This document shows, piece by piece, positions 1 through 64,000 of a DNA stretch of 64,000 nucleotides. The position numbers and the translations under genes were made by a program. Below the pieces are notes generated by a model. It did no database searches, was not told where the DNA came from, and saw nothing but the letters and a program-made list of their open reading frames with translations. The stretch comes from Bilabrum cf. latius. Lineage: Eukaryota. The stretch spans positions 2,666,001-2,730,000 of the forward strand of contig OZ237735.1 in assembly GCA_965178125.1 (NCBI GenBank). Direction: 5' to 3'. Position 1 is the stretch's first letter, and every line of letters starts with the position of its first letter.

Positions 1-3000
1 GTCGTCTGTCGGTCGCTCGAACCCGGTGTCCTGGCCGCGGATTGCTGCCTTGCTGCGGAGGTGCGCCAGGAGCTGCATGGCAGCTGCAGCCTTGTCTGAG
101 CCCAGTGTCGCGGGGTCTGTCGCAGCACCACCAGCGACTCCCGATGCTCTAGGTGCCGGGGGCTCTCCCAATGCGGCGGGGCGGAATGACGCAGACTGCA
201 GCGCTTCCCGCTGCTGCCTCCTCAGCTCGTGGTTCTCTGAGGTCAGCGCGGCAAGCCGGTCTGCCACGAGGAGGGACTCCTTGGCCGCAGCCAGAACTTC
301 CTCGTTCAGCTTGTTCTTTGTGCTGGCGGAGCTGCCGTCGGCTCCTTCTTCCAGCTGGCGCGCCTGCTCCTCGTGCTGCCTTACCATCTCTCGGATCCGC
401 TCCACCCTCGCAAGCTCGTCCGCGAGCTACGCACTGCCCGGCGATGCCGCTGCAGCGCTGGGACCAGCTAACCCAGAGGCATCCAGCGCGCCGAGTGCCT
501 TGGTTACGGAGCTCTTACCCGACTTCGAGGGCGAGCTGACAAGTCGGCCGTGCTGCCTGCGAGAGCGAAGCAGCTTCTCATTAGCTTGGTGCATGGTCTC
601 CACGGCCTGCCGCAGCTAGCTATTCTCGATTTCAGCCTCCAGCAGGGCTCTCAGGCTCTTACTGTGCTCGCCAGCGAGCTTGGCCAGTTCAGACGCTTGC
701 TCAACGGACATATTCCTGGTTATGAGGTCGGCTTGGTGCTGCGCTGCATCCAGCAACGGAGTTAGCATGGCTGGCTGGTCCTCTTCCTTGTTGGAAGCAG
801 CCGCCCCTTCGGCCATGTTTTCACCATCGGGACGCTCGCTTGCAGTGCCGCGAGCCGTGTAGCCTTCATCTGCCCTGCGCGGCTTGCTTACCGATGCTCC
901 TGCATCATTGGCCGCGATCTGAGCGTGGCGCGAGCCGTTGGCAACGTTTGCTTGTTGCGGCACCTCGTCAGCATCGAGCGGCCCGTGCGCTAGGAGCTGC
1001 ATGTCCATCCACTCTCGCACAGACTGGAGGGCTCTCTGCGCCGCCCGATCCAAATCATCTTCACAATCAGCGTCCGAGGTGGTAGAGCCCCTCGACGTGC
1101 CTTGAGCTAGGCCCGCGAGGGCGCTCGGCATGTCGGCACGTGCCGCCGCCGCTCTCTCAGCAGCAGCAGCCCGCCCGAGTGGATACGTCTGTACCGCGTC
1201 CATGGATGGCAGCCCTGCAGCACGCGGTGTTCTGTTCTCCTACTCTGGGGAGGCGGGCGGTGACAGGTGCGCTCCCGGGGCCACCCTGGACGAACGCGAG
1301 GAGACCGCCCTTGCCGCCGCTGCAGCCGCCCTGGCAGTGGCCATGCCGGCAGATTCCGCCTGCAGCAACAGCGTGGCTTCCAGCTCCCGCACCTGACTCA
1401 CTGCAGCCGCGACTGCCATCTGGCCGGCTCGCCTGGCTCGGCGCACGACCTCTTGCGGGGACTGGTCGCCGTCCTCGTCGTCAACTGGCAGCCCCGCCGA
1501 TCGCAACGGACTCGCAGGCACCTCTGTGCTCAGCTGTTGCTGTGCAGTGGCCACTGCTCGAAAGGCTGCAGCTGCTGCTTCTGCCACCGGACTCGCGTTT
1601 CTTGCGCTTCGGGACAGGCCCTGAATGGCGGCCAGGTCCTCGTTCCGCTCAGGCGGGGTGCGCGGGCCGCTGATGCGGAGACCTTCCGTGCTGGCCACGG
1701 CTGAATCGCCCTGGGTGCTGGGGGTAGAATCGCGCGCTCCGGTCTAGCTTGCATCGCTGCCCGCCTCCACGTTGTTCCCCATCGACTGCACAATCCTGCT
1801 CAGTGAGGACCGTGTGGATGAGGGCTGGCGCACCTGCTCGGGCAAAGCCGGCGCGCGGAGTCCCTTAAACCCAGTAGATCCCCGGCGAGGTACTTGTCCC
1901 AGAACATCCAGGTGTGCCGGGGCGCTACTGCCCTCAAGCACACCAGGAGAAGACACGCGCCTGCCATGCTCGCCCGTCGACTCGTGTCCGTGTTGGTGGC
2001 CGTTGTCTCCGCTGGTGCGCTACCGTCCGCTTGGCAGTGGCAGCTGCGTGAATGCTCTCGGAGACTCCCTGCCACTTGGCAACGTGTCTCGCAACCTGTC
2101 CGTTGGGCTGGGAGGACCGCGCTGGGCGTCGATCTGCAAAGATATTGACTCGCCTTCGGGGCGCCAGCCCGCGCCATGTGCCGTCAGTGGGAGCGATTCG
2201 CATGTGTCCCTGGGGCCGTTGCTGCCCTCTGCGACGACGCGCAACTGGCTCCGGCTCCGGCTGGGAGAACTCCCGCTCCCTGCCGGCGCACCGCCCTATC
2301 GCACCCCATTTCCTCCTCCCATGCTGCTGTTGTCCTATGGCTCGATATGAGCGCTCTAATCTTGCCGCCTGTCGCTCCCACTGGCTGCGGCTGATGCTGC
2401 CGCCGAAGAGCCGAAACCAGCCTCTGCATCCTCCGGGGCACCGCTGCTTGCTCCTGCCGCCGAAGAGCCGAAACCAGCCTCTGCATCCTCCGGGGCACCG
2501 CTGCTTGCTCCTGCCGCCGAAGAGGCACTTTCCTACGCCGCTGCATATACAGGTGCACCAGAGTCTCCGAATTGAATTGTTCCCTGTCCCGTTGTTCCCT
2601 ACAGGGCCTCGTCCAGTCTGACAGACGCACGGCGCGCGTGCTCGCTGTCTCTCCTCTGCTGGATCGCCCTCGCCTCCGGATCTCTCTGCATTTCCATGGC
2701 ATCCACCAGAGTGGACCCGGCACTCGAACGAGACAACATATGGGATGAAGCGGATGGGGAAGGGTGCTAATTTTCTGGCGGAAATTCGTGTGACGCTGTA
2801 GACGAGGCAGCCGCAGATGGGATCTGGGCGTCGGCTAGTTCCGCCAATCGACTTTCCAGGCTAGCTATAGCAGCTGAAGACTTTGGAGACCCACCGGATT
2901 GCGAAACAGGGCTATACATAGATGTTTCCGAGGCTGGGTCTGCCACTGTCCCTCCTGGACGCCTTTCTGATGGTATGTGCCTAGCAGGCCGCTTGCGCGC

Positions 3001-3927: not shown

Positions 3928-6900
3928 ATGAATCAAAGTTCTTCATCAGCTCCAGGAAGCCAGCCGAGTAGCGATGATCCGAATCTAGCAAACAGTCAGA
4001 GTGCATTTGAACCTGATGCTTTGTTCGGCGAATCCATGCCTCTGTAGAGCCAAGAATTTGACGAAGACACATTTTCTGACGACTAGAACCCAATGTCTCC
4101 GGTTGAGGCCAGAGACGGTCCTGAGCCACGGGGAGAGTTAGCAGCACTGCGAGAGCAGCAAGCTTGCGTCGCTACTAGTGCATCGTCCAACGCACTGAGT
4201 CCACCTGACTCCAAAAAAGCTGGCATCACGGCGGCGCTATCGGACTCATAGGCATCATTACACTCGTCCGCCAAGCTCGATGGGCCTGGACGTGGTGATA
4301 GCGAGAGGCGTAGCTTCTCCAGCGGTGGAGCTCAGCCACGAGATTCTAGTGCAGATCTGCTAGACTCATCATCGCATTCTGGAGTGAAAGGGACGTCTAA
4401 AACGTAGCATAGACCCGGTGATCACGCACCTACCGATGCAGCTGCGCGGCAGAGCGACTCTACGTCGCTTTCAGGAGGTAGCCGCGGACCGGCAGCCGCA
4501 GTGTCACCCGCGGCCAGCAGGGACACGAGCAGCGCCACAGTTCCTAGTCGACCCTCGGGGCCTGCTTCCATGCCGAGTGGTGCGGCAGCACTCATCGGCT
4601 CTGCCCCTTCTCCTGCAGCTGTCAGCCCCGGCTCCGCTCCCTCGGTTCAGGCTCGCATGGCCCCCGCGCTGGTGCCCGCCGGCAGGGACGAGACATCCTC
4701 TCTCCTCCCCGGGCAAGTCACGTTCGTGGACCGCTCCTCCGAAGACTCAAGGAATTCTACTGGACGTAAGGCTAGCAAGAGCTCTGGGCCCCGCGCGAGC
4801 GAGGTCACAATAGCCCCAGACGGTGAAGGGGCCGGCAGCAGCAGCAGTAGCAGCAGCAGCGACTCTCGGCAGCACGAGGCCCAGGTGCAGGGGCAGGCCC
4901 AGGTGCAGGGTCAGGTGCATTCGCGTGAGCACAAGCAAGAACACGACACGAGCGGCAGCTTGAGCCAGCCCCAGGCGGAGGCTGCAGTAGATGCAGTGAG
5001 GGCAAGCGATCGTGATGGAAGGCCAACCCGAGACCCCGCGGAGGGCGGGGGGATAGTGTTGGCTGGCGTGCCGCGCCCGTCTGATAGCAGGTCAGACAGC
5101 AGTGCCAGCGCCATGGGCACGGACACGCAGAGCAGCAGCCAGCAGGAGCAAGCGTCGGCTGACCAGTCCTACCAGAGCATGGAAAAGCTGGACGGTCCAG
5201 GAAAACGGGATGGCGGCACGTCCACAGATCAACAGGACGAAGAGAATTGCGTTAGGTCTCCACCCGATGCTATTGGCCAGAAGCGAAGCCGGCCATAGCC
5301 GAATACGGCCCCCAGCCACTCGTTGGCACCGGTGATGATGGCGCGGCAGCGAACAGTCGAGCCAGAAGGCATTCCTGCTGGCCAGGCGGTGCTGACGCCC
5401 GACGCGTCTGGACACCCGGCCAAGAAGCCACGGGTAGAGCCAATCGGCAGCCACAGCCGAAGTACTTCACCAACAACTGCAAGGGGCGTTGCCATGCTGA
5501 ATGAGAGCTCCTTGCTGCAAGAACAGCAGCACGCTGCGACCAGCAGCAGCAGCAGCAGCAGCGGGGGAGGTCGGCAAGCCCCATTAGCAGTGCCGGGCGA
5601 TCGATTTCCCGTCCCTTCCCAGAGCCAGGTACAGCTGAAGCTAGCACAGTCTTAGCCAGACGAAGCCCGACTGCCCGCGGCGATGGCGGATGCAGACGAC
5701 CCGGACGGGGCGGCGCGTGGCCTGCTGACGACTCCTGCGGATGCTTCCACGACCGGTGCCACCTCGGCGTCCTCGGGCGGTCTTCGCAGCGGGGGCTCTG
5801 GCGGCTCTGGTGACGCTCGAAAGCAGCAGCGAGACAGCCAACCAAACGCGGTAGATGACAGCATGCGATCACCAGCACCACAAGGCAGCTCCCAAGGCAA
5901 AGAGCGGCCATCAGGAAGGTCTCCGACAGCCAAGCAACGGAGTGAGGTTGCCCTGCAGAAGCCGCCACCCACCAGCAAGCGCAAGCCCACCGCACCTAGG
6001 ACCAAACGCGACGGCGTCGAGCAGGCTAACGGTAAAGTCGATGCTGCAGCGGATAACATGCAAGCTGAAGAAGACATGCTGGTTGACGAGGAAGACATGA
6101 AGGCCCTGGCTGCTGCGTTTGCAGACCAGCAGAAGAAGGAGGAGCAGCGAACGAAGAGACAAGGCAAAGAATCAAGCCGTGGGGCTGGTCGGGGCGACAC
6201 GGACCAACACGCAGCTGCTGCTTCAGCGAGCGCGTCCAGGGCGAATGGCGCCTGCAAGGAGCTACCGGCCATCGCCGAGATTCAGCCGGGTCGTACGGTG
6301 GACACGGTCGGCGTTGTCACCGAGGCGAGCCACCCGAGCGGGACAGGGGGCAAGGACCACAAGGTGGGCCTCTCGCTCATCGACGACTCGATGGCAGAGC
6401 ACGCCACAGCTGCGGTATCCGTGGATCTGAACATTTTCATCAAGCCGGCACACGTGGACGTTGGGCTGCCCTTTGGACGCGTCTCTCCCAACCTTTGGGT
6501 GGCACAGGCTGGAGACATTCTTGTCCTGCGCCGAGTGGGCATGCAGTCCAAGTATTCCGGGGGAGGGGCCTTTCGGAACTTGGTGGCGCATAGCGACAGG
6601 ACCCATGCGGCCTTCTTTATTGTGAGCGGTGCCACGGGGCGCGTGCTGTGCCGATGGCCCGCCACTGCCAGCTTCAGACCCAGGGAGGCCAACAGGGTTA
6701 GATGCCTGAGGGAGTGGGCGCAGCCGCGGCTGCGCAGGGCACCCTTCCACCAGATGGAGTACTAGATGACAATCGAGGATTTGCTGCTAGAGCGCGGGGG
6801 CATCGACCACCGGTCCAGCAATTTCGATCTCGTCGGCATGCTGGTTGGCGCCATTGTGGTGGATGAGAACGGCAGCCAGCTCGTGGCTGGATTCCCGCCC

Positions 6901-8502
6901 TGCTCCACAAGGATCAAGCCTGGGCGCTTGCTGGATCCCAGGAACCCGCAGCTGCGGAACCAGGTGATTCTACTCGTGTGGGACGGCACGGGTGACGCAG
7001 AGAACGGCTGCTTGGGGTTTGGGCACCCGCCCGTGGCTCGCGCCACGCCAGAGGCCGGAAAAGAGCTAGGAGTCGTCACTGGGTGTCGAGGCGCCATCAT
7101 GTCTGTGGTGGCCGTGTCGCGTGGCGTGCAGTACCATTCATGGATGCTAGCACACCGTCTCAGCAACGGTGCCAAGCAGGCTGCCAAAGAGAAGCTCGCT
7201 AGCACCAAGGGTCCAAAGCCACGAGAATCCAAAGCGGTTGCCTTTCGGAAAGCATCCACAGCGCCTTCTGCGGATGATTCCAGGGCCACGGCTGTTGGCC
7301 AGGACGAAGGTACAAGCACGGACGTGCCCAGCCTGCGACCCGGTGATTTCATTCGATTCTCCAAGCTCTGCGTGAAGCATAGGGGCAGGCCCCCACCCCT
7401 GCCACCTGCCGATCCAGTCGACCAGCACGGGAGGCCATTGCGCGGCGCTGCGAGGCGGCAGTGGCTGGTACAGCGCCGGACCATACAGAACCAGCACCAC
7501 AACCAGTCCCTCCTGTACGCAGAGATGAGTGCCCAGAGCTCCTGCACCGCAGTCCCAAGGGATGCGTACCCGTGCCAGGAGATCTTGAGGCGAGCGGAGG
7601 CATGGCTTCCTGCTGCTGGCGTAACGGATGGCTCCAGTGGCGCTACCAGCTCGAGTTCGAGCGCATCGGCCAGCAGTGGCGCAGATGCTGCGGCACCTGC
7701 AGACGAGGCGAGGATAGCACAGGGCGGCACTTCCGGGCCAAGCGGCACGTCGTCAGGCGCTAGCGGAGGCACTGGCAGTGGTTCCGGTGCTATCGACCCC
7801 GCCGCAGGGGCGGAGGTTCCCAAGGACGCTGTACCGAAGCAGCACCACTCATCTCCAAAAGAGGCAATGGCAGACCTCCCAGAAGTGTACAGCCCGCCGG
7901 TCGCGCCGAATGCCGCGACTGCGATCGTCACGCGCATCTCTCGACAGGGTGCTGCAGCCCACGCAAGCAAAGTATTGATAGACACGCACCCTGCTGGCCG
8001 TGATGGGTCGATCGCACCATCCTGCTTCAGGAGCATGAGTGCGGGTGCCACTGCGCGGCTGCAGGGCCAGGTCACGAGCCACTGGCCGCTGGACCATCGC
8101 GGCGTGGTGGGGGTGGGCAAGGATGGGAGGAGGAGGGTGCTCGCAGTGCTGACCATCGCGGACGAGTCAGGTGCTGCCGATGTGGTGCTGGCGGGGCGGA
8201 CGGCTAGCCGGTTCTTTGGGCTGCCGGAGCCGGGCCCAGGGCCTGAGAGAGCGGGTGGGGCCGGTTCCACCAGCACGGAGCGCGCGACTGGTTCATAGGA
8301 GTGGGAGGCTGCTTGCCACGCCAGGATTGATGAAGTCATGAGACAGCTTTATGACGACGGCATGCGGCGCAATTTCGTGGACGTGCTGGTGCGGCGGGCC
8401 ATTGACGCAGGGCCGGGAGGAGGTGCGGCTGGAGGCAGCGGCTCGGTGTACAGCCCCGTGCAGGGCTTGCTAGTCGATGGCAGGTTTATTGGACGCACAT
8501 GA
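3928..8502 (+). CDS. POT1: Protection of telomeres 1 (OB-fold telomere end-binding protein), ~1524 aa with long disordered N-terminus
   Basis: OB1: IAEIQPGRTVDTVGVVTEASHPSGTGGKDHKVGLSLIDDS..AGDILVLRRV..VRCLREWA. OB2: FDLVGML..ILLVWDGTG..LRPGDFIRFSKL. C-terminal OB: LTIADESGAADVVL..ASRFFGLP. One frame runs from ATG 3928 to TGA 8500-8502, interrupted only by 8 TAG codons, including 6763 between OB1 and OB2. The start codon is uncertain. Confidence 0.8.
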
Positions 8503-8618: not shown

Positions 8619-9841
8619 TCATCGCCGGCCGCTGCTCCCCCCGCCCACCATCAGCTTGAGCCTGGACTGCACCTCCTCAAACACGGCCCAGGTCAGCGCC
8701 TGGGACGTCGCTCTCTTCGCTGCCCTGGCGGGGAGCCCCTTCCACAGGGCTGCCACGCCTTCCTCCTTGACCATGTCGCGAGCAGTGCCCAGCAAGGCGC
8801 GCATGCCGAGCCGAGGCGTACTAGCCGGCGGATTCGCCCCGGCAGAGTCTCTGCTAGATCGGGCCGCGTCAGCCGTGGCCGCCAACACTTGCTGCCTGGT
8901 CTTGATTGCATCGGCGGGATGCGTCACAGTCGTGGCAACCACGCCTGCCAGCAGTCCGCAGCCGAGGTTCTGCAGCGCCAAAGGGACGCCCCATCCGCTA
9001 CCCTGCTCTGATGGCCCAGGTTGCTTCACTAGCACTCGCTTGAGGTGGTCGTACACGAGATAGTACGTGCCAGAGAAGGGCGCGTCTCGAATGACGGTGG
9101 GCAGGACGCCGACGAACAGCCCGCGCGCCCCTTCCGCACGGATCACCGACCGTAGCTCCTAAACCAAGCCCTTGTGGCTCAATGCTGCGTCTGCGGCGCT
9201 CACGCCAGGTCGAACCTTGCGCCACTGTGCAAACTCAAGCCGGGTCTTGACGACGCTGATCGGAGATAGCATGACGATGGCTAGCGTGCGAGCCAGAGCG
9301 CTGGCAGCGAACGTTCTGGTCGCAATGTCGCCAGCGGAAAGGATTGACATACTTTGTGATTTGCTGCGACCAGACCCAGCTGCAGACGGCTTGGGCCCAG
9401 AGGTAGCAGCCGCGTGATTCTTGCGAGGGACACCTGCCCGATCCAACAGCTCGTGGAGCAGCGTAAAGTAAAACCCCGCCCCAACAAAGACGCGAACCAC
9501 GCTTGGTAACATACCTTTCCAGAGCGACTTCCACCCCTCTTCTTCTACCAGAAGCCTGGCAGTTCGTAGAATGCTCCTGCGCACCACATGCAGATGAGGG
9601 CTGGTACCAGATGGTGTTAAGGCGCAATAAGAGCACGAGTGGTCAGCATACTGATGGCGATAATGGTGCTGTCTCACAAACTCCGAATCGGACGCGAATT
9701 AGTTGTCATGGTGCTGTTCTGTGCCAAGATTCTCTGTCGATAGCTCTGCTACGTTGTCCGAATCACATCCAATGGCTATAGAATGGCTGCTGTCATGCTC
9801 CCGCTCAGAGCACCTCCTGCAAAATTCAAAAGTTGATCCAT
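8619..9841 (-). CDS. SLC25A38: Mitochondrial carrier, SLC25A38/Hem25-like (glycine carrier family), ~373 aa; exons 9841-9678 and 9576-8619
   Basis: Three carrier repeats: MDQLLNFAGGALSGSMTAAIL[TAG]PLDVIRTT[TAG]Q, SPISVVKTRLE and HPADAIKTRQQ. Family-typical RVFVGAGFYF and RDAPFSGTY are present. Intron 9677-9577 is GTGAGA..CGCAG. In-frame TAGs lie at 9776-9778, 9749-9751 and 9159-9161; the gene ends on TGA. Confidence 0.85.
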
Positions 9842-9932
9842 TTCGTCCAATCACAAAATCACTTCAATGGTTCGTAGTGCGACACTTTGCTCCCAGTCAC
9901 GCATCAGTCGTCACACGATCCGATCCATTCGC

Positions 9933-10851
9933 TCAGTCCTTCTTGAGCTCGAAAGTGCTCCTCGTGATCCCGGCCTTCTCGATCACGAATATCTCGATCG
10001 CGTCACCCGTGTAAATGTCCCGCTCGCACGCAGTCACGAATGCCTCCTTCGCGAGCTCCACGGCGTCCTCCACTCCCATGGCCGGCTTGGGCGCGGGGCG
10101 GTGCTTCCAGCCGACCAGGTTGTCCAGCAGCGGGATGATGAGCTTCTGGCCCGCCCCCTGGCACGCGTACCCGACTCGCTCGAAGCTCCCCACGGCATCG
10201 TACGTGTACACGGCGCCCTTGCCCTCGGCGTCCAGCCCAGCCAGCACGTTGAACGCGTAGTACGGGAAGAAGCGGCGGTAGTAGAGGGTCGTGCTCAGGA
10301 GCTGTGCCATGGCAGGGGCAGAAATCTCCGAGTCGTGCTCGTGCTGGTACTCGTCTGCGCGCATCCCAAGAACCTTGTGTAGCGTGGCAACGTCGGTGAA
10401 GCAGCCGCCTGTGCCGAGCACGCACGTGGAGCTCAGCTTCACCGCCTTGCTTTGGTCCCTGCTCAGGATCCTGTATCCTTCGGCCAAGCGAGTGTCGCAA
10501 GCCAACACAGCAAAGTTATCACCCGAAATACCGAGGGCAGTGCCACCATTGAATTCGTAAGGGCTGAACCTGTGTCCAATCGGCCGCTCCTTACCATCCA
10601 CGCTGCGAGACATTTGCGACAGAGGCGACAAAATGCGCAGCTTGGAGTCGATCGTATTGCGCACGATTACATGCATCTATCCATACTCACGTCATTCCAC
10701 TAGCCGATGCTACCGCTTTCTCGAAAGCGCTTGCTCGGTCAATGGCAGCCGATGGCGCCTCGACCGTCGTGGCAGAGGAAGGCAGCGACGGTGCGCTATC
10801 CGTTGCCTTGGATTTATCATCGAGACCAACTGGACCGCTGTTCGTCCACAT
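9933..10851 (-). CDS. PSMB1: 20S proteasome subunit beta-6 (PSMB1/PRE7), ~276 aa; exons 10851-10691 and 10602-9933
   Basis: HRFSPYEFNGGT, LYYRRFFPYY, GKGAVYTYDAVGS, ERDIYTGD and terminal LKKD-TGA. The predicted intron 10690-10603 (GTGAGT..CTCGCAG) keeps the frame. Alternative unspliced starts are ATG 10613 or 10676. No TAG codons. Confidence 0.93.
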
Positions 10852-11922: not shown

Positions 11923-12023
11923 CGGTAGTCTAGGCTGCTGTGGGGCCGGGAGAAACCCTTCAAGTTGGTAACTGTATTGTGTGCTCGACCATGTAATCTG
12001 GTGTTTGTACGTTAATATTAACC

Positions 12024-54586: not shown

Positions 54587-54994
54587 ACTGAATGCGGATC
54601 GGATCTGATCTGATCTGATCTGGCGACCACAGTTGCTGCTTTTGAATGGGTGCGTGCCGCTGCTTTGTGAGACCGGCTATTCGAGGGCGCCTTTTCGTGC
54701 GCCGCTCTGTCGCTGGCCCCACTCGCGCCGCTCTCCCTCGTGGTGAGCAGGCTGGAGCCGAGGCTCCGGCCGCTCCCGGAGGAAGCGCGCCGCGAGCAGT
54801 GTGCTCCAATCTGCGCTGATTCATACAATTGCTTGTATTTCTAGAATTCTGGTTCAGATCGCGTCGACCCCACCCGCCGGCAAAACTAGATCTATTCGGT
54901 AACCGAATTTCGGTTCCGTTTTTATTGGCGCGGCGCCACACCACGTGACGCGCACAGACGCAACAGTACACACCTCTAAAACAACCGCCAGAGC

Positions 54995-57004
54995 ATGTCA
55001 TTTTTCCTTGGACCGCACCCCCATGTGAAGCCGAAGGAAGGCGCAGATGTAATCAAGGAGGTACGCGCGTACATTATCTCCTCGAAAGAGGCGGAGGAGA
55101 AAGGCGGAGGCGGCGCCGATTGCCACTCCTAGTCGCACGGCCACTGGATCGTGGATACGCCGATCTCAAACCCCAGGTAAGCCTTGTATACGTGCATGCG
55201 TTTCTCACTGGGCATGCTCATCGGCAGCCCTACCTTTCGCTGGATCCTTGCCACTGCACAGCGATCTTTGTGACTCGAAGATTCGCTGCCTAGTATCTAA
55301 TTAATCGCTTGGTGTCAGAGCACGTATCTGTCCCATTTTTCGCTTTCAATACATCGCAGTTCTTACTATGAGGAGCGGAAGGTGAGCAGAAAGTCGTGGG
55401 GCATCGACGCCCTGGGCACAGTGGTTGTGGAGGTCGAGACTGTCTCTGGAAAGACAGGCGTGGGCATTTCGATCGGTGGCGAGCCAGCCTGCTTTATCGT
55501 TGAGAATCATCTGGCTCGGTTTGTTGAGGGCCAGGACCCGCACAACGTGGAGCTGATGTGGGAGCAGATGTGGCGCGGCAGCGTCAACTACGGCCGCAAG
55601 GGCCTCGTGATCCAGGCTCTCTCGGCCGTGGACCTCGCCATCTGGGACGTGCTAGGCAAGATCGCAGGCAAGCCGGTGTACCAGCTGCTGGGCGGCAAGA
55701 CCAAGGACCGCCTCCCCGTGTACGCCACGACGGCCCGCCCGGACCTTGCCAAGAAGCTGGGGTTCGTGGGGGGCAAGTTCCCGCTGCCCTACGGCCCCGC
55801 GGAGGGGGACAAGGGCATGCGCGCGAACATTGAGAGGGTTAAGGCCGTCCGCGAGTCCGTGGGCCCCGACTTTCCCATCATGATCGACTGCTACATGTCC
55901 CTCACGGCCACGTACACGATCGAGCTAGCCCGCCGCATCGACCGCGAGGTGCCCAACGGGGTCAAGTGGATCGAGGAGTTTCTCATGCCCGACGACTACG
56001 AGGGTGAGAAGAAGAATATATCACAATGTTCTCGCTACGATTGAATCGCACTCCATGCCGAGCCGTGCGTTCCTGCTCCAGCTCCTCTTGGAATACCCTT
56101 CACCGTTCCGTGCTCGCAGGCTACGCCGAGGTGAAGCGCCGCGTGTCCACCACCCTGCTGACCACTGGAGAGCACGAGTACACGAGGTACGGCTTCCGCC
56201 AGCTCCTCGAGAAGAAGTGCTGCGACCTGCTGCAGCCGGACATCACATGGTGCGGAGGACTCACGGAGGCAAGAAGGATCGTGGCCCTGGCTGCGGCCTA
56301 TGACATCCCGGTGATCCCGCACGGGTCAAGCGTGTTCAGCTACCACTTGCAGTACGCCTTCAGCAACTGCCCCATGGCCGAGTACCTGATCCTGTCCCCC
56401 AAGGGAGACACCATCGTGCCTCTCTTCGGGGAGCTCTTCACGGACGAGCCTCTGCCGAAGGACGGGTTCATTGATCTGCCCGACCGTCCCGGTGAGATGG
56501 ATGGATGGGACGAATATGAAACGGCCATGCTTGCAACACTTCTGCGATTAGATTCGTGGTCCGATCCCTCCCAGGATTCGGTGGTCGCTGTTCCCTGCTG
56601 CCATGCGCCTGGGATCGACCCACCTGTGCATTCGACTCAACGATCGTTTGAACACTTGCCCGCTGCTTCCCCACCGCTCCCACGGATCCATTTCTCACCC
56701 TCACTTCCCTCCCTGCCTCCCTGCCTCAGGTTTCGGAGTCACGCTCAACCCCGCGATCGGGCTCAAGCGGCCCTACCCTCGCACCTCGCCCACCCCTGCA
56801 GAGGTGGCTGCATCCAAGGCTGCCGCATCGTGCCCGCAGGACGACTGGCTGGGCCGCGCCGCCCGCATCGGCACCGAGGACGTCCCGCTGTCCCCCGAGG
56901 GGTCCGCCGGAGCTTCCGGGGACAGGGCCGAAATCGTGGCGCCCAAGCCAGCCCCTGCCACGGGAGCTGCAACAGGGGGTGCCGCGGCCGGCGCCGGGAA
57001 GTGA
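54995..57004 (+). CDS. L-rhamnonate/L-galactonate dehydratase family (mandelate racemase/enolase superfamily), ~490 aa; exons 54995-55176, 55360-56003, 56120-56491, 56730-57004
   Basis: GGGADCHS[TAG]SHGHWI (RhmD has GADYHDQG..HWI), SRKSWGIDALG, YGRKGL, KFPLPYGP, MIDCYMSL, KWIEE, TGEHEYTRYGF, QPDITWCGG, IPHGSS and PGFGVTLN..LKRPY. Three GT-AG introns; the gene ends on TGA. Confidence 0.9.
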
Positions 57005-57120
57005 TATTGCATCTATGGGTCTACTTTTGGATTCGTGATGATTTGGAGTGGGCTGCCAATCGGTCGGGGGGGATCATCGGAACCTGCCAGTGGACATTTT
57101 GAGTTGGATGTAACTCGGAT

Positions 57121-57810
57121 TCATGTCACCCTACGTGCAGGCACAGGGTCTACTTTCAAGCCACCGGTCAAACCAGCCTTTTCCAGCCGCTCTTGCCTAA
57201 CCTTTCGATCCGCAGCAAGCAATTCCATGGCCTCTTTAGCGCTGTCAACGTATGTGATGGATGCCATGATGGCCTCCGAGATGCCCAGTGAATCTGCCAC
57301 ACCCTACAACGTCTTTTCCCAAGGATCACGGAAGCAGAATATCTTAGGGGCAGTATACTTCCCCATCGAAGCAAGCCCTGCTACGTTCCAAGCCACGCAA
57401 AGCTCGGTGAGGGTACCCATAGTCCCAGGAAGAATCAAGAAAGCATCTGCCTGCTCCACCATGTGGTTGATCCTGTCCAGGATGGACTGCTTCACGACAA
57501 AGCTGGTCAAATATTCATTGCCTCCGAATGGCCGGTGCCGAAACACGCTCGGCACGACCACCCCGATGCACTACCCACCCGCTTCCTTGGCTCCACGAGC
57601 GCTGGCCTCCATAGTGCCCTGATAACCGCCATTGATAACAGTCAGTCCCGCCTTTGCAATTTCAGATCCTGCATCATGCGCTAATTTGTACAAATCGTCG
57701 CCCGGCTTTGCCCAAGATGCTCCAAACAGAGCGACACAGGCGCGAGGGCTTGCCCGCTCGTCGAACGCTAGGTCGGAAGTCGAATCCAATGGCCCGGACG
57801 CAGCTGCCAT
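57121..57810 (-). CDS. LOG / lysine-decarboxylase-like nucleotide phosphoribohydrolase, 229 aa, intronless
   Basis: VALFGAS..LYKLA..G..IA..G..VINGGY.GTMEA.ARGAKEAGG[TAG]CIGV..R..MVEQADAFLILPGTMGTLTEL. TAGs at 57571-57573 and 57304-57306; the gene ends on TGA at 57121-57123. Confidence 0.85.
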
Positions 57811-57873
57811 GGCAATACACTATGATTGGTCGTTGCTAGTCGCGCACCGCCGGCAGACGAAGTCAGGCTGTAA

Positions 57874-57959
57874 AGATTTGAACTGGGGTGACCGATATGC
57901 TTCATCTTCGCGCCGTGAGGCGTGCAGATGAAGCATATCGGTCACCCCAGTTCAAATCT
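57874..57959. repeat. Perfect 34-bp inverted repeat forming a long hairpin
   Basis: agatttgaactggggtgaccgatatgcttcatct (57874-57907) is the exact reverse complement of 57926-57959. The 18-nt spacer pairs further around a GTGA loop. Confidence 0.95.
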
Positions 57960-58014: not shown

Positions 58015-61000
58015 TCATTCCTCGTCGGAGTCTTCTTCCACTTCGATGCCCGTCTAGTGAGACGCACGACTTGCCCTGCCAGTTGCAGCGCCCTTGCTCG
58101 TGCTCTTGCCACTGCTGCTGGCCTGATGCTGATCCACACTGCCAGAGGTGTCCCGGATGTCTGCTGCTAGCTGGTCAAGGGCTCCAGCCACGCTAGAGGA
58201 TGACACCGCAGGCCCCGTTGGCCGCACTGGCGCTCGTGCGTGCGCAGGTGCACGCCGATGGTGCCCGAGTTCGTCGTTCCACTCGCCGGCTGGATGAACC
58301 CTCGCGCGCTGGTTGTGATTGTAGTGCTACGACTCGTAGCGACTCGGAGCGGTACCAGCGAAAACTCTTGTGCCAGAATTTGCCGCAGCAGCACCCGCAC
58401 CTCGTTGAAAACCGCCGCCCCCAAGCGGGTGCAGCGCACTGCGGGCGGTGGCAGACAGTCCCCTGGCGGCCCGGGCCCGCACCCGCTGCAGGATCCGTCG
58501 CTTGGAGGCCACCCGCTCGGCCTCCACCTGCGGGTCGCACACGGGTGCCCCCCCGTGCCAGCGAGGCAGCGCCGCGGGCCGGGTCCCTGGTCGGGAGGGG
58601 TCGGCCCCTGCTCCTGCTGCTCCTGCTGCCCCTGCCCCTGCCCCTGCCCCGCCCACCGTGTGGGAGTGCCTGCACACCCGCAGGCCCGGGATCAGCCCCG
58701 CGAGAATTCCGCGCACACTGCCGATGGTCAGCGGGTTTCGAATCTGCACGAAGGACTTTCGGCCCTCGTCTCTCGCCAGCGATTCACGCCGTCGAGCCCC
58801 CCGCTTGCGTCCCTTCCCCGCGCCCTCGCTCTACTTCTATCTCTTGCTATCTCTCCTTTCTTTGGCCTCCCCCAGGCCCTGCTCGAAGAGAAAGTTGCCG
58901 GTGATCGACTCCACCACCCCGGGTCCGCGGTGCGGGGACACGTGCGCAGTCGCCGCCCACACGTCCCCGTGGAAGGCTCGAAGCGCGGCCAGCAGCATCT
59001 CTGCCTCCAGCGGCGCCACTCCCCACTGGCCCGCCTTGCCCTTCAGCGCGCATGCACCCAGGACGAGGCTCCCCGCGTCTCGGCCGGGTATGTCTCGCTG
59101 CGGGAGCAGAATGGTCCACGGTGGGAGGCGCGAGGCCACCTGCAGAGCCGCTCTCGACCTGGATAGCGGCTCCGTGGGGCCGCTGAATGGCCCGCCCTGC
59201 GCGTCTGTTTGCTGTGAATGCGCCCGCTGCACCATCCTCGAGACCGCCTCGCTGGCCCTCTGCTCTGCCTGCGCCATGGTGGTGTTGGCATGAGAGCCAG
59301 AGCCTGATGCCGACGATGCATGCGCTGGCGTGGGGAATCCCGACAGAGTGTGCCTGTGTCTGGATACGCGCCTCTGGGAAGCTTGGAGCCTGCGAGTGGA
59401 GGAGTCGGAGCGGGATGATACGATTGGGCGAGGAGATACACAAGCCGGTGCCATGCGACCGAGTGTGTCCAAGCGGTGTACCGTTCGAGATTGCGTTGCA
59501 GAGTCAACGGCATGCATCGCCAGTAGCCACGGTCTGGCAGAGTCAACGGCATGCATCGCCAGTAGCCACGGTCTGGCAGAGTCAACGGCATGCATCGCCA
59601 GTAGCCACGGTCTGGCAGAGTCAACGGCATGCATCGCCAGTAGCCACGGTCTGGCGACTCACCTCTGGTAGATCTCCCCGGGAGTAAAGGAAGGGAGCAA
59701 AAAGGCGTGTGACTGCTGCTGCGCCCGGCCAGAGGCACCGAATCGATTCACCGCCAAGGCTGCAAGCACCAGCTCGGAGCCCCACATGAGTAACGCCTAG
59801 GACTGGTCCCTCTTCGCCCTTGCCCTCGCACCTTCCCGCACCTTTCTGTCCGTCTCGGGCACGATCAGAACGCACGGGTTGGACTTGGGTCTGTAATCGG
59901 CCTCGGGGACGCCCCGGCTGGTCGCATCCACGTGGTCTTGGATGGCAGCGGCAGCGACAGGAGGCAGCTGCGAGGTGGAGGTGCAGGAGAGCAGAGTTGC
60001 AACACAAGAATGACCAGTCATCGAGCAGAGACGGGCGCTTGAGTTCAATGAGAAGAAGATGCAGGTATGCGTGGCCTCTGGTGGCCCAACTCACCAGGCC
60101 GAACTCCTTCACGATCGGAGCGAGAGTGAGGCACGAACTCAGGTTCTTTCGCGTGGCGTGGACGTGCACCGGTCGGTATGAAGTCCCGTCCAGCGTGTGT
60201 TTGATTCCCAGCGGGGTCCTCGATAGGTAGCTCACGCTCGCCTGCTGCAGATCGTGGTCGACACCCGGCAGTGACACCCTAGCACCGGGCTGGTTGTTCC
60301 CGCTGGCCTCGCCAGCCGTCCCACTTTCCCCAGGGGAGCGCCCTGCAGATGTGGTCGATGATTCCGCGGCCGGCTGGTCGAGTAGGCCGGCGGCAAGGCA
60401 CGTCCTGTAGGATCGCCTGCGAAGCCGCACTGCAACGTGGTCTCGCACATCTTGCAGGCCCCACAGGCCCGTGGTGGCAAATAAAGACGGCCGCTGTGCC
60501 GCTGGCAGTCTCTGCGCGTTCTCGGATGGGTGGGTCAGAGCCCATGGCCCGTGCGTGTGCAGCGAATCGGCCAGTCGCTCGAGTGCCTATCTCGTCAGCC
60601 TGCCTGCGCGGGAAAAGAAGCTGCGAGGAGCAGCCGCGGCTCCCTTGTCGTCCAGTGCCTGGCCTGCCGCCAGATCGTCCTGCACGGCGGCCGCGATGCC
60701 GTCAAGCCGCCTGGGCACGTCGTCTTCCTGGTCCGAGTCATCGATGGCGCCTCTCTTCCGCTTGCGACTGCCGAGAATGGGGCGAGGCGGGCGCGGTTTG
60801 TCGCCTTTATTGGATGGCTTCTTCGACACTGATGCCCGTTGCACTGCACTCGTCTCAGGGCCAGGACGGTCTTGTACGTCGTCATCGGTACTATCACTGT
60901 CACTGTCACTGTCGCTGTCACCGTCGCTCTCACTCGTCGAGCTCGTGGAGGCCCCGCTGCCTTGCTGGCCGGCTCGATCGCTGCTGGCCTGCATGGCCAC

Positions 61001-64000
61001 CTATCCTCTGCTCTAGTCCTCGTCCTCGTCCTCGTCGGACTACTCGTCAGGGTCGTAGTCGCTGCTGTCTCCCTCCCCGCCTTCATCCAGCATGGCTCGC
61101 ACCTTGTCAGACACCGGTAATGCCCCCGGCCTCATTGATGGAGACATGCTCCCAGCTAGTCCCAGCAAAGCTCTCGCGGCATCTGGCTCATCGAGACTCG
61201 CACCCCTTGCCTTGGATCCCCCCTTCGCGACCCCAGCAGCCCCAGCCCCAGCCCCAGCCCTGCCTGCAGCAGTCCCGCCCGATCCACCGCTCGCCGCTGC
61301 GCTCCGCTGCCTGGCCATCTTGGCTGCCAGCAAGGCCGCCTCCCTGGCCCTGCGCTGGGACTGCTCCTCCCGCTCTCGCTGCTCCCGGTCCTCGTCTTTC
61401 TCCCTTGTGCCGTGATTCGGCCCACCGCGACCCCTTTCAGTCCGTCGGCGCTTGCGCTCGTTCGCCTCCTGTCGGGAGGAGGAGACACCTGGCAGCAGCG
61501 TGTAGATGTCCCGCAGATGATCAGGCAGCCGCACCGGGCGGGGCATCGGCACTGCTTGGCCCCGGGGTGCTCCAACGCTCGCCAGCGCCTTGGCCAACGA
61601 ATGAAGGTGCGCGGGGAGCCGGGTGTCTTCTGCAGAGAGGGAGGCCTCGCGGGGCAGCTTGCCTGCCACGTCATGTAGCCCTTCGCTTGCATCGGACTCC
61701 TCCTCGGTTCCGTCACCGTCCACGTCGAATCCAGATCCGCCTGCCACTGCGTCTGCCGCCGTGGCCAGCTTCTCCAGCTCGCCCACCATCTTGGACGCTT
61801 CAACCGCCACGCTCACACCGACAGGAGAGCGGCTGCATGCACCCATCACCATCAGAGTGCCCAGCAGCTGAGAGGCCGCCTAGGACTGGTACCTGAGCCT
61901 CTCCTCCTGATCCCTGCACATGAAGCGAAAGCTGCGGCCTCGCACTAGGCCCATCCCAGCCACGGGGGGCCCACCGCCCATCGCAGCCGCGGCAGCGGTT
62001 GCCACTCGCAGCTCGTGCTGCCTCGAAGCCGCCAGCTCTCGGGAGGGCCCGCCCAGCATTGGGACGGCCCCTGCCCGCATGCGATTGGCGGCCCCTGCGC
62101 CATGCATGGACCCAGGCAGGGAGGGGGGGACGTGGGGTACATGCATGGCCCCAGGTCCTGGTGGCACGCTCGGTGCGTACTGCCTCTGCATAGAGCGCTG
62201 GTGCTGCTGGCCCGTGCCCCCGCCGGTATGTGCGCGCAGCTCGGGGGGAAGCGGCGGAAACCCACCCACCCCTGGCTGGTTGTCCATCGGAGCTGCGTGC
62301 ACGGCCGGGCCGCCACTGCCTGGATAGCCAGCCTATAGCCGGGCTGCGTCTGCCAGAGCCCCTGCTGCCGCCGCCGCCCCTGGGCCACCGCTCGACACTG
62401 CAGCTCGCAGTGCCGCCTCATCCGCCTCCCTGCTGGCGCGCTGCGCCTCCATGCCGGACTGCCGTCCCACCCGCTCGATGACCGCCGCGAGATCGATCAG
62501 CTGCGACCCGGTGCTGCCCGGCATGCGCCCTGTCCCCTGTACACGAGGCACCAACCCTGCCCCGTCCTCGTCCTCTCTAGACTGGAACCTCACAGTGCGC
62601 ACCGCTTGCCCCGCTTCTGCTGTCTCCCGGCTGACCCCGAGCTGGCCCTCCGGCACCGGCACCCCGTATTTGGCCCGCAGCAGCTCTGAGAGGTCCTGCT
62701 GGATCCGCTGCAGCAGGACACCCGTGCTAGCGGCGCGCTGTGCCTCCTCTCGCGCGGATTGAAGGTGGGCCTGGGCCTGCAGCCTGGCCATGCCCGTTCC
62801 CGTGCCGCGTGCAGAGCCGGGTGCAGACAGCGGGGCGTACCCGGCAGGAAGCGCGGCACCGCCAGCGTCACGTGGCTGCGGGGCTCTCCGCTTGGATGCA
62901 GCTTGTGCTGCTGCGGCGGCGGCTGCAGCTGCGGCTGCCGCAGCCGCCGCTGCCGCAGCTGCCGGATCGGAACTGCTTGATCCAGCGCGAGTGCCAGCAC
63001 CACTGAGCTGAGTGCTTCCTGTTTTGCCACTCCTGCCAGCAGTGGCCCCGACAGCAGCACCCCTGCCTCGCCCTTTGCCCCTGCCCCTGCCCCTGCCACG
63101 ACCTCGGCCACGCCCCCTGCCCCTGCTCCTGGTCGCACCGCCGGCTTGCTGACTGCGAGTCCTCGCCGCTCCCCGGCCTCTTCCTCTGCTTCGCACGGCA
63201 GGCGCCCTCCTCCTGGCCCCCAGCAGGTCCTTGATTGCCTCCTCGTCAGAGTCATCCTCCACGGAGGACTCCTTCTGCTCCTCGTCCTCGTCCTCATCGT
63301 CCTCGTCCACATCCTCCTGCCCGCTGGCCTCGTACTCGTCCTCGTCGTCCGCCTGGCTGCCCCCGTCCCCCCATAGATCACCAAGCACGCTACCAGCCAC
63401 AGAGGCGCCCCCGCCCCCGTATGTCCCATGCATCCCACCAGCACCAGCACGCAGTGCACCCGCAGCCAGGAGAGTTTGCTCCGGAGGCACAACCTGCTGC
63501 TGGGCCTCCTGCAGCAGGCCCTCCACCTCTGACCTGGGCACGCGGATGCGAGACGGGTCCCTCATCCAGCCCTCCGAGTCCCCGCCCCTGCTGCCGATGG
63601 TCCCGCTTGCGGCCCCCGTGGTACTTGCGCCGTCGGACCCTGCTCGCCGCCTGTGCTGCTGCTACTGCAGCCCGCCCCCGCCCCTGCCCCTGCCCCTGCC
63701 CCTGCCGCTCGCCCCCTCATCGCCATCACCGTCCTCCTCCGCATCGCTAAGCCGGAAATCAGAGTCCACGTCGGGCCTGTCCTCATCCGTGAGCCACGAG
63801 AGGAGGCTGTTCAGGTCATCGTCGTCCCCTCGCCGCCGAGGGATCCGCAGCGAGGGCGCAAGGGACGGGGCCAGGGAGCCAGCCACGGAGGCGCGGCCGG
63901 TGGGAGAGCCCGTCCCGGCATCTCGTAGACTACCATGCATGCCTTGCCGTGGCTGCATTGCGTTTCTATCTGCCTCATCTTCCCTCATGCGCCGCAGGAA
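58015..64000 (-). CDS. GON4L/YY1AP1/DUO3-like nuclear protein, 5' partial (>1860 aa); exons >64000-60095, 59967-59663, 59389-58015
   Basis: Acidic N-terminal part; WMRDPSRIRVPRSEVEGLLQE; EERLRYQS[TAG]AASQLLGTL; ELVLAALAVNRFG..FLLPSFTPGEIYQR; EMLLAALRAFHGDVWAATAHVSPHR. These recall the conserved blocks and Myb/homeodomain-like repeats of GON4L and DUO3. Introns 60094-59968 and 59662-59390 are GTGAGT..CGCAG. About 12 in-frame TAGs; the gene ends on TGA. Confidence 0.55.
59498..59655. repeat. Intronic 39-bp minisatellite x4
   Basis: Identical units gcagagtcaacggcatgcatcgccagtagccacggtctg at 59498, 59537, 59576 and 59615, inside predicted intron 59662-59390. Confidence 0.95.

What the first reader, a model, noticed from the sequence alone, without database searches (positions are those of the whole stretch)
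1..64000. Non-standard nuclear genetic code: UAG is a sense codon read as glutamine
Seen: about 110-120 in-frame TAGs (manual count) in 11 genes, including essential RPB7 (11348), with no frameshifts and no in-frame TGA or TAA. Identity: TAG occupies recalled conserved Gln sites in the SLC25A38 L-Q-PLD motif (9776-9778), GH36 LPxxR-Q-GE (40528-40530) and RhmD GADxHx-Q-xxxHWI (55130-55132). It also sits inside Gln runs: CAG TAG CAG CAG at 63662 and CAG TAG TAG at 43264-43272. Established: UAG=Gln with UAA/UGA as stops is NCBI table 15 and is very rare in nuclear genomes (the fornicate Iotanema spirale, a few ciliates). Inference: in a GC-rich, possibly stramenopile-like protist this could be an undescribed independent reassignment.
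Basis: partly seen in the sequence, partly recalled or inferred. Interest (0 to 1): 0.97.

Follow-up and report, generated by a model that had tools for sequence, protein, structure and literature searches.

The report
UAG read as glutamine, stramenopile-like protist
This GC-rich nuclear DNA from a stramenopile-like protist uses the stop codon TAG as an ordinary glutamine codon while keeping TAA and TGA as stops, a rare genetic-code change that I could not find reported for this group.

Summary
Twelve gene models hold 114 in-frame TAGs and no in-frame TAA or TGA. One intronless frame has 8,632 codons and 61 TAGs. Chance is excluded (about 1e-50).

- **DNA and RNA:** spliced contigs from two studies carry the same letters, so four TAGs are kept in transcripts.
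- **Relatives:** a syntenic metagenome contig (L001) needs the same reading, with 50 TAGs in two frames.
- **Meaning:** 17 of the window's TAGs align with a non-TAG residue in relatives. The residue is Gln at 13, Ala at 2 and Arg at 2. L001's own TAGs align with Gln at 10 of 20 sites. On the 27 sites shared with L001, Gln beats the next residue by 35 log-likelihood units.
- **TAA is a stop:** none occurs in frame, and orthologous C-termini end in TGA here and TAA in L001.

This is a table-15-type code. By PSMB1 the organism is a non-ochrophyte stramenopile. Eight literature searches found no stramenopile case. The tRNA-Gln(CUA) and eRF1 could not be examined.

The parts
1..3645 (-). CAP-Gly-domain protein gene, 3' part runs off the window. 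It has 11 in-frame TAGs. One intron lies at 3239-3345.
   Evidence: Open frame under table 15. Weak CAP_Gly Pfam hit, E 8.9e-5, below the gathering score. TAG positions. Spliced joint in X5 and X6.
3928..8502 (+). Gene2, a 1,524-aa protein with no Pfam family. It has 8 in-frame TAGs and ends in TGA. Its orthologue lies in L001.
   Evidence: The L001 orthologue at 10165-15312(-) has 16 TAGs and ends in TAA at the homologous C-terminus.
8619..9843 (-). Mitochondrial carrier gene with two exons (9843-9677 and 9575-8619). TAGs at 9778, 9751 and 9161. Stop is TGA.
   Evidence: Mito_carr hit, E 1.1e-46. Intron 9576-9676 seen in spliced contigs of X5, X6 and X7 with 0 other letters. CDS. At ILxPLD the window TAG aligns with L001 CAG; at RTTxQ both have TAG.
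9933..11002 (-). Proteasome beta-6 (PSMB1-like) gene with three exons and no TAG. Stop is TGA.
   Evidence: Proteasome Pfam hit, E 2.1e-36. Introns 10603-10690 and 10862-10977. CDS. 94% identical to P0001/L001.
11163..11922 (+). RPB7 gene with three exons. TAG at 11348-11350. Stop is TGA.
   Evidence: SHS2_Rpb7-N hit. PDB RPB7 hits at E 1e-19. Introns 11174-11265 and 11587-11678, and TAG kept in spliced contigs of X6 and X7. L001 has CAA at this site.
12024..37922 (-). Giant intronless ORF of 8,632 aa with 61 in-frame TAGs, 0 TAA, and a TGA stop.
   Evidence: Weak BLTP1_N hit only. The C-terminal 2,000 aa are orthologous to L001 1-6147, which has 34 TAGs. At 8 TAG sites, fragments about 88-93% identical from public assemblies have Q at 7 and R at 1.
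38518..43500 (-). GH36 alpha-galactosidase with long low-complexity arms. It has 8 in-frame TAGs and ends in TGA.
   Evidence: Melibiase (E 1.4e-137), GH36N and GH36C hits. TAG at 40530 aligns with Q of AgaA. The near-identical public protein P0155 has Q at the two TAG sites 41772 and 41418 and ends just before TAG 40530.
44548..47277 (+). Sodium:solute symporter gene with 3 in-frame TAGs. It is the only window ORF that ends in TAA.
   Evidence: SSF hit, E 1.5e-52. Stop codon.
54980..57102 (+). L-rhamnonate-dehydratase-like (enolase superfamily) gene made of several exons. It has one TAG, at 55130-55132.
   Evidence: MR_MLE_N and MR_MLE_C hits. The exon with the TAG aligns to PDB RhmD chains, with Q at the TAG in 4 of the 5 shown. 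Exon borders were not verified by RNA.
57121..57951 (-). LOG / SLOG-cluster4 (lysine-decarboxylase-like) gene with 3 in-frame TAGs. Stop is TGA.
   Evidence: The TAG sites fall in variable columns of PDB homologues.
49290..51338 (+). ORF of 682 aa with no family, containing tandem peptide repeats. It has 4 in-frame TAGs and ends in TGA.
58015..63988 (-). Two adjacent or overlapping ORFs with no family, 58015-59634 (4 TAGs) and 59621-63988 (7 TAGs). The second includes CAG TAG CAG CAG at 63662.
   Evidence: The gene models were not verified by RNA or homology.

Best explanation
In this organism's nuclear code UAG is a glutamine codon, and UAA and UGA remain the only stop codons (the pattern of NCBI table 15).

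Shown here:
- TAG lies inside real, transcribed, spliced coding sequences.
- Its orthologous and near-identical counterparts in relatives are mostly CAG/CAA.
- TAA and TGA end the genes.
- At least three related sequence lineages in public data show the same pattern.

Inferred, not shown:
- A tRNA-Gln with anticodon CUA reads UAG but not UAA. It most simply arose from tRNA-Gln(CUG) by one anticodon change.
- eRF1 has lost efficient recognition of UAG.

TAG makes up about 12% of Gln codons here and about 21% in relative L001. It is absent from the three well-conserved ORFs checked (PSMB1, the kinase exon and the peptidase C1 exon).
For: **1. Sense use**
- 114 in-frame TAGs, 0 in-frame TAA and 0 in-frame TGA in 12 gene models, including an 8,632-codon frame.
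- log10 P by chance is about -50.

**2. DNA and RNA**
- Contigs of 4 runs from 3 studies show no other letters over window 1-20000.
- Runs X5, X6 and X7 hold spliced forms (GT..AG introns).
- Those spliced contigs cover TAGs 9161, 9751, 9778 and 11348.

**3. Relatives**
- L001, a syntenic 15.8-kb metagenome contig with 66-76% DNA identity, has frames of 2,048 aa (34 TAGs) and 1,715 aa (16 TAGs).
- These frames open only if TAG is sense.

**4. Identity, the window's own TAGs**
- Against L001: Q at 4 of 7 sites, A at 2, R at 1, plus 2 sites where both have TAG.
- Against fragments about 88-93% identical that read through these sites with an ordinary residue: Q at 7 of 8 sites, R at 1.
- Against the near-identical P0155: Q at 2 of 2 sites.
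- Total: Q at 13 of 17.

**5. Identity, L001's TAGs and pooled test**
- L001's TAGs align with Q at 10 of 20 sites. The baseline for Q aligning with Q is 56%.
- Pooled log-likelihood over the 27 L001-comparison sites: Q -47.3, next best E -82.2.

**6. Distant homologues**
- Q in AgaA at GH36 TAG 40530.
- Q in 4 of the 5 RhmD chains shown.

**7. TAA is a stop**
- If TAA followed the CAA/CAG ratio, about 28 in-frame TAA would be expected here and about 34 in L001. None is seen (counts).
- The carrier and gene2 end at homologous residues with TGA here and TAA in L001.
- The SSF gene ends in TAA.
Against: - No protein-level evidence exists (no mass spectrometry).
- No tRNA-Gln(CUA) or eRF1 could be examined. 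No genome is held, and neither the window nor L001 contains such a tRNA.
- The RNA status of runs X5-X7 is the tool's guess, and X5 is flagged 'probably DNA'. It rests on the spliced joints.
- 4 of the 17 window TAG sites align with A or R.
- Some TAGs fall at columns where distant homologues have W, K, L, H or S/T.
- TAG is not enriched beside Gln codons.
- Whether UAG also terminates some genes cannot be excluded from 64 kb.
Confidence: 0.93

Rival explanations
1. Both UAG and UAA encode Gln (table 6 type, as in ulvophytes, hexamitids, oxymonads and Amoeboaphelidium). On this view TAA is simply rare because the genome is GC-rich.
For: 12 of the 13 window ORFs that reach a stop end in TGA. 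UAR=Gln is the commonest nuclear variant (PMC5304391 and PMC11687900, passages read).
Against: There are 0 in-frame TAA, where about 28 (window) and about 34 (L001, GC 57%) would be expected from the CAA/CAG ratio. In L001 the carrier and gene2 end in TAA exactly where the window orthologues end in TGA. The window's SSF gene ends in TAA followed by AT-rich sequence.
Confidence: 0.03
2. The code is ambiguous. UAG is Gln inside genes but also ends some genes, depending on context (as in Condylostoma, karyorelicts and Blastocrithidia).
For: This cannot be excluded from one window. ORFs were extended through TAG by construction. A TAG follows directly after the TGA stop of the kinase exon.
Against: Every C-terminus that homology validates ends at TGA or TAA. 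These are PSMB1, the carrier and gene2, plus GH36, whose C-terminal domain reaches residue 1651 of 1660. Conserved sequence continues after TAGs close to C-termini, for example L001 RATSxALTWAVFEEVQ.
Confidence: 0.04
3. TAG is not translated as written. Alternatives are a sequencing or assembly artefact, RNA editing of UAG to CAG, pseudogenes, or TAG standing for another amino acid.
For: None specific. Four of the 17 window sites align with A or R.
Against: - The letters are identical in 4 runs of 3 studies, and spliced contigs still carry TAG.
- The same usage is seen in L001 and in fragments from other assemblies.
- A 25.9-kb frame free of TAA and TGA is not a pseudogene.
- Gln beats every other residue by at least 8 log units for the window sites shared with L001 alone, and by 35 when pooled with L001's own sites.
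Confidence: 0.01

Closest known systems
Iotanema spirale (Fornicata): nuclear UAG=Gln with UAA and UGA as stops (Panek et al. 2017, PMC5304391; passages read)
   Same: The same assignment: only UAG is reassigned, to Gln, and UAA is kept as a stop. The same predicted mechanism: tRNA-Gln(CUA) plus an altered eRF1.
   Different: It belongs to an unrelated supergroup (Metamonada). It was inferred from a transcriptome, and an eRF1 T32G change was reported. Here the organism is a GC-rich stramenopile-like lineage, the evidence is genomic DNA plus spliced contigs and relatives, and eRF1 was not seen.
Ciliates with UAG-only=Gln: Protocruzia tuzeti and two phyllopharyngean lineages (McGowan et al. 2024, PMC11687900; passages read)
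   Same: UAG=Gln while UAA is not Gln. These are independent origins of the same variant.
   Different: They are ciliates (Alveolata). Here the best named PSMB1 hits are stramenopiles, and the window shows ordinary GT..AG introns, 63% GC and long multi-gene DNA.
UAR=Gln codes (table 6): Ulvophyceae, Hexamita, Streblomastix, Amoeboaphelidium and many ciliates (PMC11687900, PMC5304391)
   Same: A stop codon is reassigned to Gln. TAG and CAG are one transition apart.
   Different: In those codes TAA is also Gln. Here TAA was tested and is not used in frame, and it ends genes.
Code-15 bacteriophages (crAss-like and others; PMC9523058, abstract seen in the listing)
   Same: TAG=Gln, NCBI table 15.
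   Different: Those are phage genomes in bacteria. This window is eukaryotic nuclear DNA with spliceosomal introns, RPB7, a proteasome subunit and 5S rRNA.
Other UAG-only reassignments: rhizarian exLh (Leu) and Scotinosphaera (Ser) (PMC11687900)
   Same: UAG and UAA are uncoupled.
   Different: The amino acid differs. Here Leu and Ser fit the aligned residues far worse than Gln; in the pooled test S scores -87.8 against Q -47.3.

Membership tests
Table-15-type nuclear code (UAG=Gln; UAA and UGA stop) | UAG occurs in frame inside real protein-coding genes | tested here: met
   114 TAGs in 12 gene models, 8 of them with Pfam hits (one weak) or an orthologue in L001. log10 P by chance is about -50.
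Table-15-type nuclear code (UAG=Gln; UAA and UGA stop) | The mRNA keeps UAG (no editing) | tested here: met
   Spliced contigs of X5, X6 and X7 cover TAGs 9161, 9751, 9778 and 11348 with 0 other letters. Only 4 of the 114 sites lie in contigs that are visibly spliced. The runs' RNA status is inferred from the joints.
Table-15-type nuclear code (UAG=Gln; UAA and UGA stop) | UAG is decoded as glutamine | tested here: met
   This is comparative evidence only. Window TAGs align with Q at 13 of 17 sites. L001 TAGs align with Q at 10 of 20. Pooled log-likelihood over the 27 L001-comparison sites is Q -47.3 against E -82.2. Q is also found in AgaA and RhmD. No peptide evidence.
Table-15-type nuclear code (UAG=Gln; UAA and UGA stop) | UAA remains a stop | tested here: met
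   0 in-frame TAA. Three L001 ORFs and one window ORF end in TAA. Orthologous C-termini end in TGA here and TAA in L001.
Table-15-type nuclear code (UAG=Gln; UAA and UGA stop) | UGA remains a stop | tested here: met
   0 in-frame TGA. 12 of the 13 window ORFs that reach a stop end in TGA.
Table-15-type nuclear code (UAG=Gln; UAA and UGA stop) | A tRNA-Gln with anticodon CUA is encoded | not testable with these tools
   No genome is held. ARAGORN finds only a doubtful tRNA-Ala(GGC) in the window and nothing in L001. Rfam finds no tRNA.
Table-15-type nuclear code (UAG=Gln; UAA and UGA stop) | eRF1 is altered in its stop-codon recognition motifs | not testable with these tools
   eRF1 is not in the window or in L001.
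UAR=Gln code (table 6) | UAA is also used in frame as Gln | tested here: not met
   0 in-frame TAA against about 28 (window) and about 34 (L001) expected. TAA ends orthologous genes.
Ambiguous stop/sense codes | The reassigned codon also ends genes | tested here: inconclusive
   No homology-validated C-terminus ends at TAG. The sample is small, and ORFs were read through TAG by construction.
Stramenopiles (taxon of the host) | Conserved proteins group with stramenopile sequences | tested here: met
   - One marker only. All 8 organism-named hits among the best 120 PSMB1 hits are stramenopiles, the best being Bicosoecida sp. CB-2014 at 65%.
- In a 46-row tree the window and P0001 pair at support 99. 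They lie outside the ochrophyte clade (99) and sit weakly (73) with the set that holds the bicosoecid.
- No 18S sequence or multi-gene data. The carrier search gave no usable names.

The most novel reading that the evidence does not exclude
This is the first nuclear genetic-code change in the stramenopiles. A clade of GC-rich, probably heterotrophic, non-ochrophyte stramenopiles reads UAG as Gln while keeping UAA and UGA as stops. At least three or four sequence lineages of this clade are already in public data. It would be an independent origin of the rare code in which UAG and UAA are uncoupled. The more distant PSMB1 relatives sampled here (for example L002, 69% identical) show no sign of it, so the change may be recent and datable.
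Probability: 0.55. Interest if true: 0.8.

Novelty: new member of a known kind. Interest (0 to 1): 0.72.

Why it matters
- **Rarity.** Nuclear code changes are rare. Changes that separate UAG from UAA are rarer still. The papers read here list Iotanema, Protocruzia and two phyllopharyngean ciliate lineages for Gln, a rhizarian for Leu and Scotinosphaera for Ser.
- **A new system to study.** A stramenopile case would add an independent origin in a new major group. Genomic DNA, transcripts and several relatives at graded distances (about 99%, about 92% and 50-94% protein identity) are already public. This makes it possible to study how tRNA-Gln(CUA) and eRF1 changed, and how TAG spreads: it makes up about 12% of Gln codons here and about 21% in L001.
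- **Practical consequence.** Standard-code gene calling shreds these genomes. Public protein sets already hold fragments that stop at TAG (P0141, P0155, P0305-P0308). Annotation, orthology and phylogenomics of this lineage need table 15.

Tried and rejected
- **Whole-genome tools.** No genome is held for this window. No genome-wide codon inference, tRNA scan or eRF1 search was possible.
- **RNA evidence.** The look-up of sequencing runs listed no holder on record as RNA. The RNA evidence therefore rests on spliced contigs in runs whose kind is guessed.
- **tRNAs.** ARAGORN found only a tRNA-Ala(GGC) call at 16201-16274 inside the giant ORF, which Rfam does not confirm, and nothing in L001.
- **PDB alignments with TAG=X.** These were uninformative at RPB7 (S/T/A), LOG (L/H/W and R/N/S) and two GH36 sites (K, W).
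- **Gln-run argument.** No enrichment of TAG next to Gln codons was found.
- **Carrier exon 2 search.** It gave only 14 hits and no taxonomic signal.
- **Screen of other loci.** I screened the 35 loci of at least 4 kb, out of the 80 fetched. Only L001 shows large frames that open when TAG is sense. L015 and L019 have one 740-codon frame with 11 TAGs, which I did not follow.
- **Rejected readings.** I considered a phage with code 15, an aphelid, an ulvophyte and a ciliate. All are rejected because of the spliceosomal introns, the nuclear housekeeping genes and the stramenopile PSMB1 hits.
- **Supplements.** Supplementary files of papers were not opened. The eRF1 alignment of PMC5304391 was not seen.
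Full report
**What the window is**

The window has 63% GC. It carries eukaryotic nuclear genes:
- RPB7, a proteasome beta-6 subunit, a mitochondrial carrier and a GH36 alpha-galactosidase;
- a sodium:solute symporter, an enolase-superfamily dehydratase and a papain-type peptidase;
- a protein kinase and a LOG-like protein;
- a 5S rRNA gene.

No whole genome is held for it.

**Observation**

Under the standard or bacterial code the longest frame is 717 aa. If TAG is read as sense, very long frames open:
- 12024-37922(-), 8,632 aa with 61 TAGs;
- 38518-43500(-), 1,660 aa with 8 TAGs;
- 3928-8502(+), 1,524 aa with 8 TAGs;
- 59621-63988(-), 1,455 aa with 7 TAGs;
- 1-3645(-), 1,215 aa with 11 TAGs.

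In 12 gene models I count 114 in-frame TAGs, 0 in-frame TAA and 0 in-frame TGA. Stop triplets occur in the window at 0.0067 (TAG), 0.0024 (TAA) and 0.0111 (TGA) per position. At these rates 116.5 TAA+TGA are expected in 8,632 codons, so log10 P(none) = -50.6. For all 114 internal stops being TAG, log10 P = -54.8.
- RPB7 11348;
- carrier 9776-9778;
- GH36 40528-40530;
- RhmD 55130-55132;
- CAG TAG CAG CAG at 63662;
- CAG TAG TAG at 43264-43272.

These were checked.

**DNA and RNA**

One search found 7 runs that hold at least half of the words of window 8601-12000. I laid four of them (X1, X5, X6, X7; three studies) on window 1-20000.
- No other letters and no indels were reported in any run.
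- X5, X6 and X7 hold contigs that skip short GT..AG (or CT..AC) intervals. X1 does not.
- The skipped intervals are 3239-3345, 9576-9676, 10603-10690, 10862-10977, 11174-11265 and 11587-11678.
- These contigs therefore derive from spliced RNA. The tool only guesses the run type, and it flags X5 as probably DNA.
- The spliced contigs cover TAGs 9161, 9751, 9778 and 11348 unchanged.

Joining the exons at these introns gives uninterrupted CDSs:
- RPB7: 191 aa, 1 TAG;
- carrier: 373 aa, 3 TAGs;
- PSMB1: 287 aa, no TAG.

For the sites covered, this argues against base-calling artefacts and against editing of UAG.

**Relatives**

A search with the main PSMB1 exon found P0001, 94% identical. A metagenome scan returned its contig, L001 (15,760 bp, GC 57%).
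- L001 is syntenic with window 3,900-17,000: giant gene 3' end, RPB7, PSMB1, carrier, gene2. DNA identity is 66-76%.
- Under the standard code its longest frame is 509 aa.
- With TAG as sense it has frames of 2,048 aa (34 TAGs) and 1,715 aa (16 TAGs).
- I screened the 35 loci of at least 4 kb among the 80 fetched. No other locus shows such an effect. L002, whose PSMB1 is 69% identical, has a 943-aa frame without TAG.

**Which amino acid**

I aligned the orthologous proteins of the window and L001 with TAG masked as X. I kept only sites whose 8 flanking columns were ungapped and at least 50% identical. Carrier exon 1 and RPB7 exon 2 were added by separate alignments.
- L001's TAGs align with window Q at 10 sites, E at 3, S at 2 and H, G, A, K, R at 1 each (20 sites).
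- The window's TAGs align with L001 Q at 4 sites, A at 2 and R at 1 (7 sites). At 2 further sites both have TAG.
- I used the observed partner frequencies of each amino acid in the same alignments as the model. Under it, Q aligns with Q 56% of the time.
- Pooled log-likelihood: Q -47.3, E -82.2, H -86.8. For the window's sites alone: Q -10.7, A -19.1.

Two further sources bear on the window's own TAGs.
- The representative search with the GH36 domain returned P0155, a near-identical protein of 525 aa. It starts after the window's TAG at residue 445 and ends exactly before the TAG at residue 991. It has Q at residues 577 and 695, where the window has TAG. This is what a standard-code gene caller would yield in a strain that has CAG or CAA at those two sites.
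- A search with residues 1261-4260 of the giant protein, restricted to shorter proteins, returned 4 fragments about 88-93% identical. They span 8 window TAGs, with Q at 7 and R at 1, in otherwise identical contexts. Two fragments end exactly at a window TAG.

In total the window's TAGs align with Q at 13 of 17 sites. Distant homologues add a little:
- Q in Geobacillus-type AgaA at LPPERQ;
- Q in 4 of the 5 RhmD chains shown, V in 1.

Other TAGs fall in variable columns.

TAG is not enriched next to Gln codons: 7.5% of 106 TAGs have a Gln neighbour, against 18% of CAG/CAA codons.

**TAA and TGA**

- Of the 13 window ORFs that reach a stop, 12 end in TGA and 1 (the symporter) ends in TAA. In L001, 2 ORFs end in TGA and 3 in TAA.
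- The carrier ends ...RR then TGA here, and ...RR then TAA in L001. Gene2 ends ...GRFIGRT then TGA here, and ...GRFVGRN then TAA in L001.
- No TAA is in frame. If TAA were Gln in proportion to CAA/CAG (157/619 here, 77/122 in L001), about 28 and about 34 would be expected (counts).
- The code is therefore of the table-15 type and not table 6.
- Whether UAG also ends some genes cannot be settled from 64 kb. No homology-validated C-terminus ends at TAG.

**Mechanism**

The mechanism is inferred. A tRNA-Gln(CUA) reads UAG but not UAA, and it is one substitution away from tRNA-Gln(CUG). eRF1 would have to be weakened for UAG. Panek et al. propose this for Iotanema and report a T32G change in the eRF1 GTS motif (PMC5304391, passages read). 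Neither gene is in the window or in L001.

**Taxon**

All 8 organism-named hits among the best 120 PSMB1 hits are stramenopiles. Bicosoecida sp. CB-2014 is 65% identical, and seven ochrophytes are 54-61% identical. I built a tree of 46 rows:
- the window;
- the hits of at least 200 aa among the top 40;
- the 7 named hits that rank lower.

The remaining listed hits were left out. In it:
- the window pairs with P0001 (support 99);
- the pair lies outside the ochrophyte clade (99);
- it sits weakly (73) with the set that contains the bicosoecid.

This is a single marker, and finer placement is open. Cafeteria, a bicosoecid with 70% GC, is described as having a non-standard code only in its mitochondrion (bioRxiv 10.1101/751586, passages read).

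**Known or new**

The papers read give the following.
- UAG-only=Gln: Iotanema spirale, Protocruzia tuzeti and two phyllopharyngean ciliate lineages.
- UAR=Gln: ulvophytes, Hexamita, Streblomastix and Amoeboaphelidium.
- UAG=Leu: a rhizarian. UAG=Ser: Scotinosphaera.

These come from PMC11687900 and PMC5304391 (passages read). Eight full-text searches, plus passages of PMC11412368 and PMC13768787, turned up no stramenopile nuclear code variant. The library lacks most subscription journals, supplements were closed, and the runs date from 2025. An existing or pending description therefore cannot be excluded.

**Verdict**

The finding is real. The reading TAG=Gln with TAA and TGA as stops is well supported (0.93). 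It is a new member of a known kind of code variant, in a lineage where none was found in print.

Noticed in passing
window 47307-47425 (+): A 5S rRNA gene (Rfam 81.4 bits, full length) lies 30 bases downstream of the TAA stop of the symporter gene.
   Followed up: no
window 16201-16274 (-): ARAGORN calls a tRNA-Ala(GGC) inside the giant ORF. Rfam reports no tRNA at its gathering score, so this is probably a false call in GC-rich coding sequence.
   Followed up: partly
window 12024-37922 (-): An 8,632-aa ORF without introns has only a weak BLTP1_N hit (E 0.0037, far below the cut-off). Its C-terminal 2,000 aa are about 50% identical to L001. It may be a bridge-like lipid-transfer protein, or it may be a lineage-specific giant protein.
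   Followed up: partly
window 38518-43500 (-): The GH36 core is very close to bacterial AgaA/AgaB (E 1.2e-182 against PDB 4fnr). About 530-aa low-complexity arms flank it, and about 400 aa are inserted before the C-terminal domain. Horizontal origin is possible but was not tested.
   Followed up: no
window 8565-10861 (-): The PSMB1 stop (9935) and the carrier start (9841) are 91 bases apart on the same strand. Single RNA-derived contigs in X5 and X6 run across both genes. This could reflect overlapping UTRs, a shared transcript or an assembly merge.
   Followed up: no
P0141, P0155, P0305-P0308 (public protein sets): Gene calls for this lineage in public collections look like fragments that stop at TAG, and some seem to start at internal ATG or GTG codons. 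Proteomes of these organisms are therefore shredded in the databases.
   Followed up: partly
L001 3811-3885 (+): The unit CAG TAG GGG CCG CAA CAA GGG ACA is repeated three times in tandem (QQGPQQGT). TAG sits where the other half-unit has CAA.
   Followed up: partly
L015 and L019 (GC 0.68-0.69): Each has one 740-codon frame that opens only if TAG is sense (11 TAGs). It may be an antisense frame of a GC-rich gene, or another TAG-reading organism.
   Followed up: no
window 1452 to 17782: One contig each in X1 and X5 joins these two places, skipping 16,329 bases, with only 22 letters on the shorter side. This is probably a short repeat and not a deletion.
   Followed up: no
window 3928-8502 (+), residues about 880-1250: Gene2 has no Pfam family, but its C-terminal half is well conserved with L001 (for example NFDLVGMLVGAIV, LLVWDGT). 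Function is unknown.
   Followed up: partly
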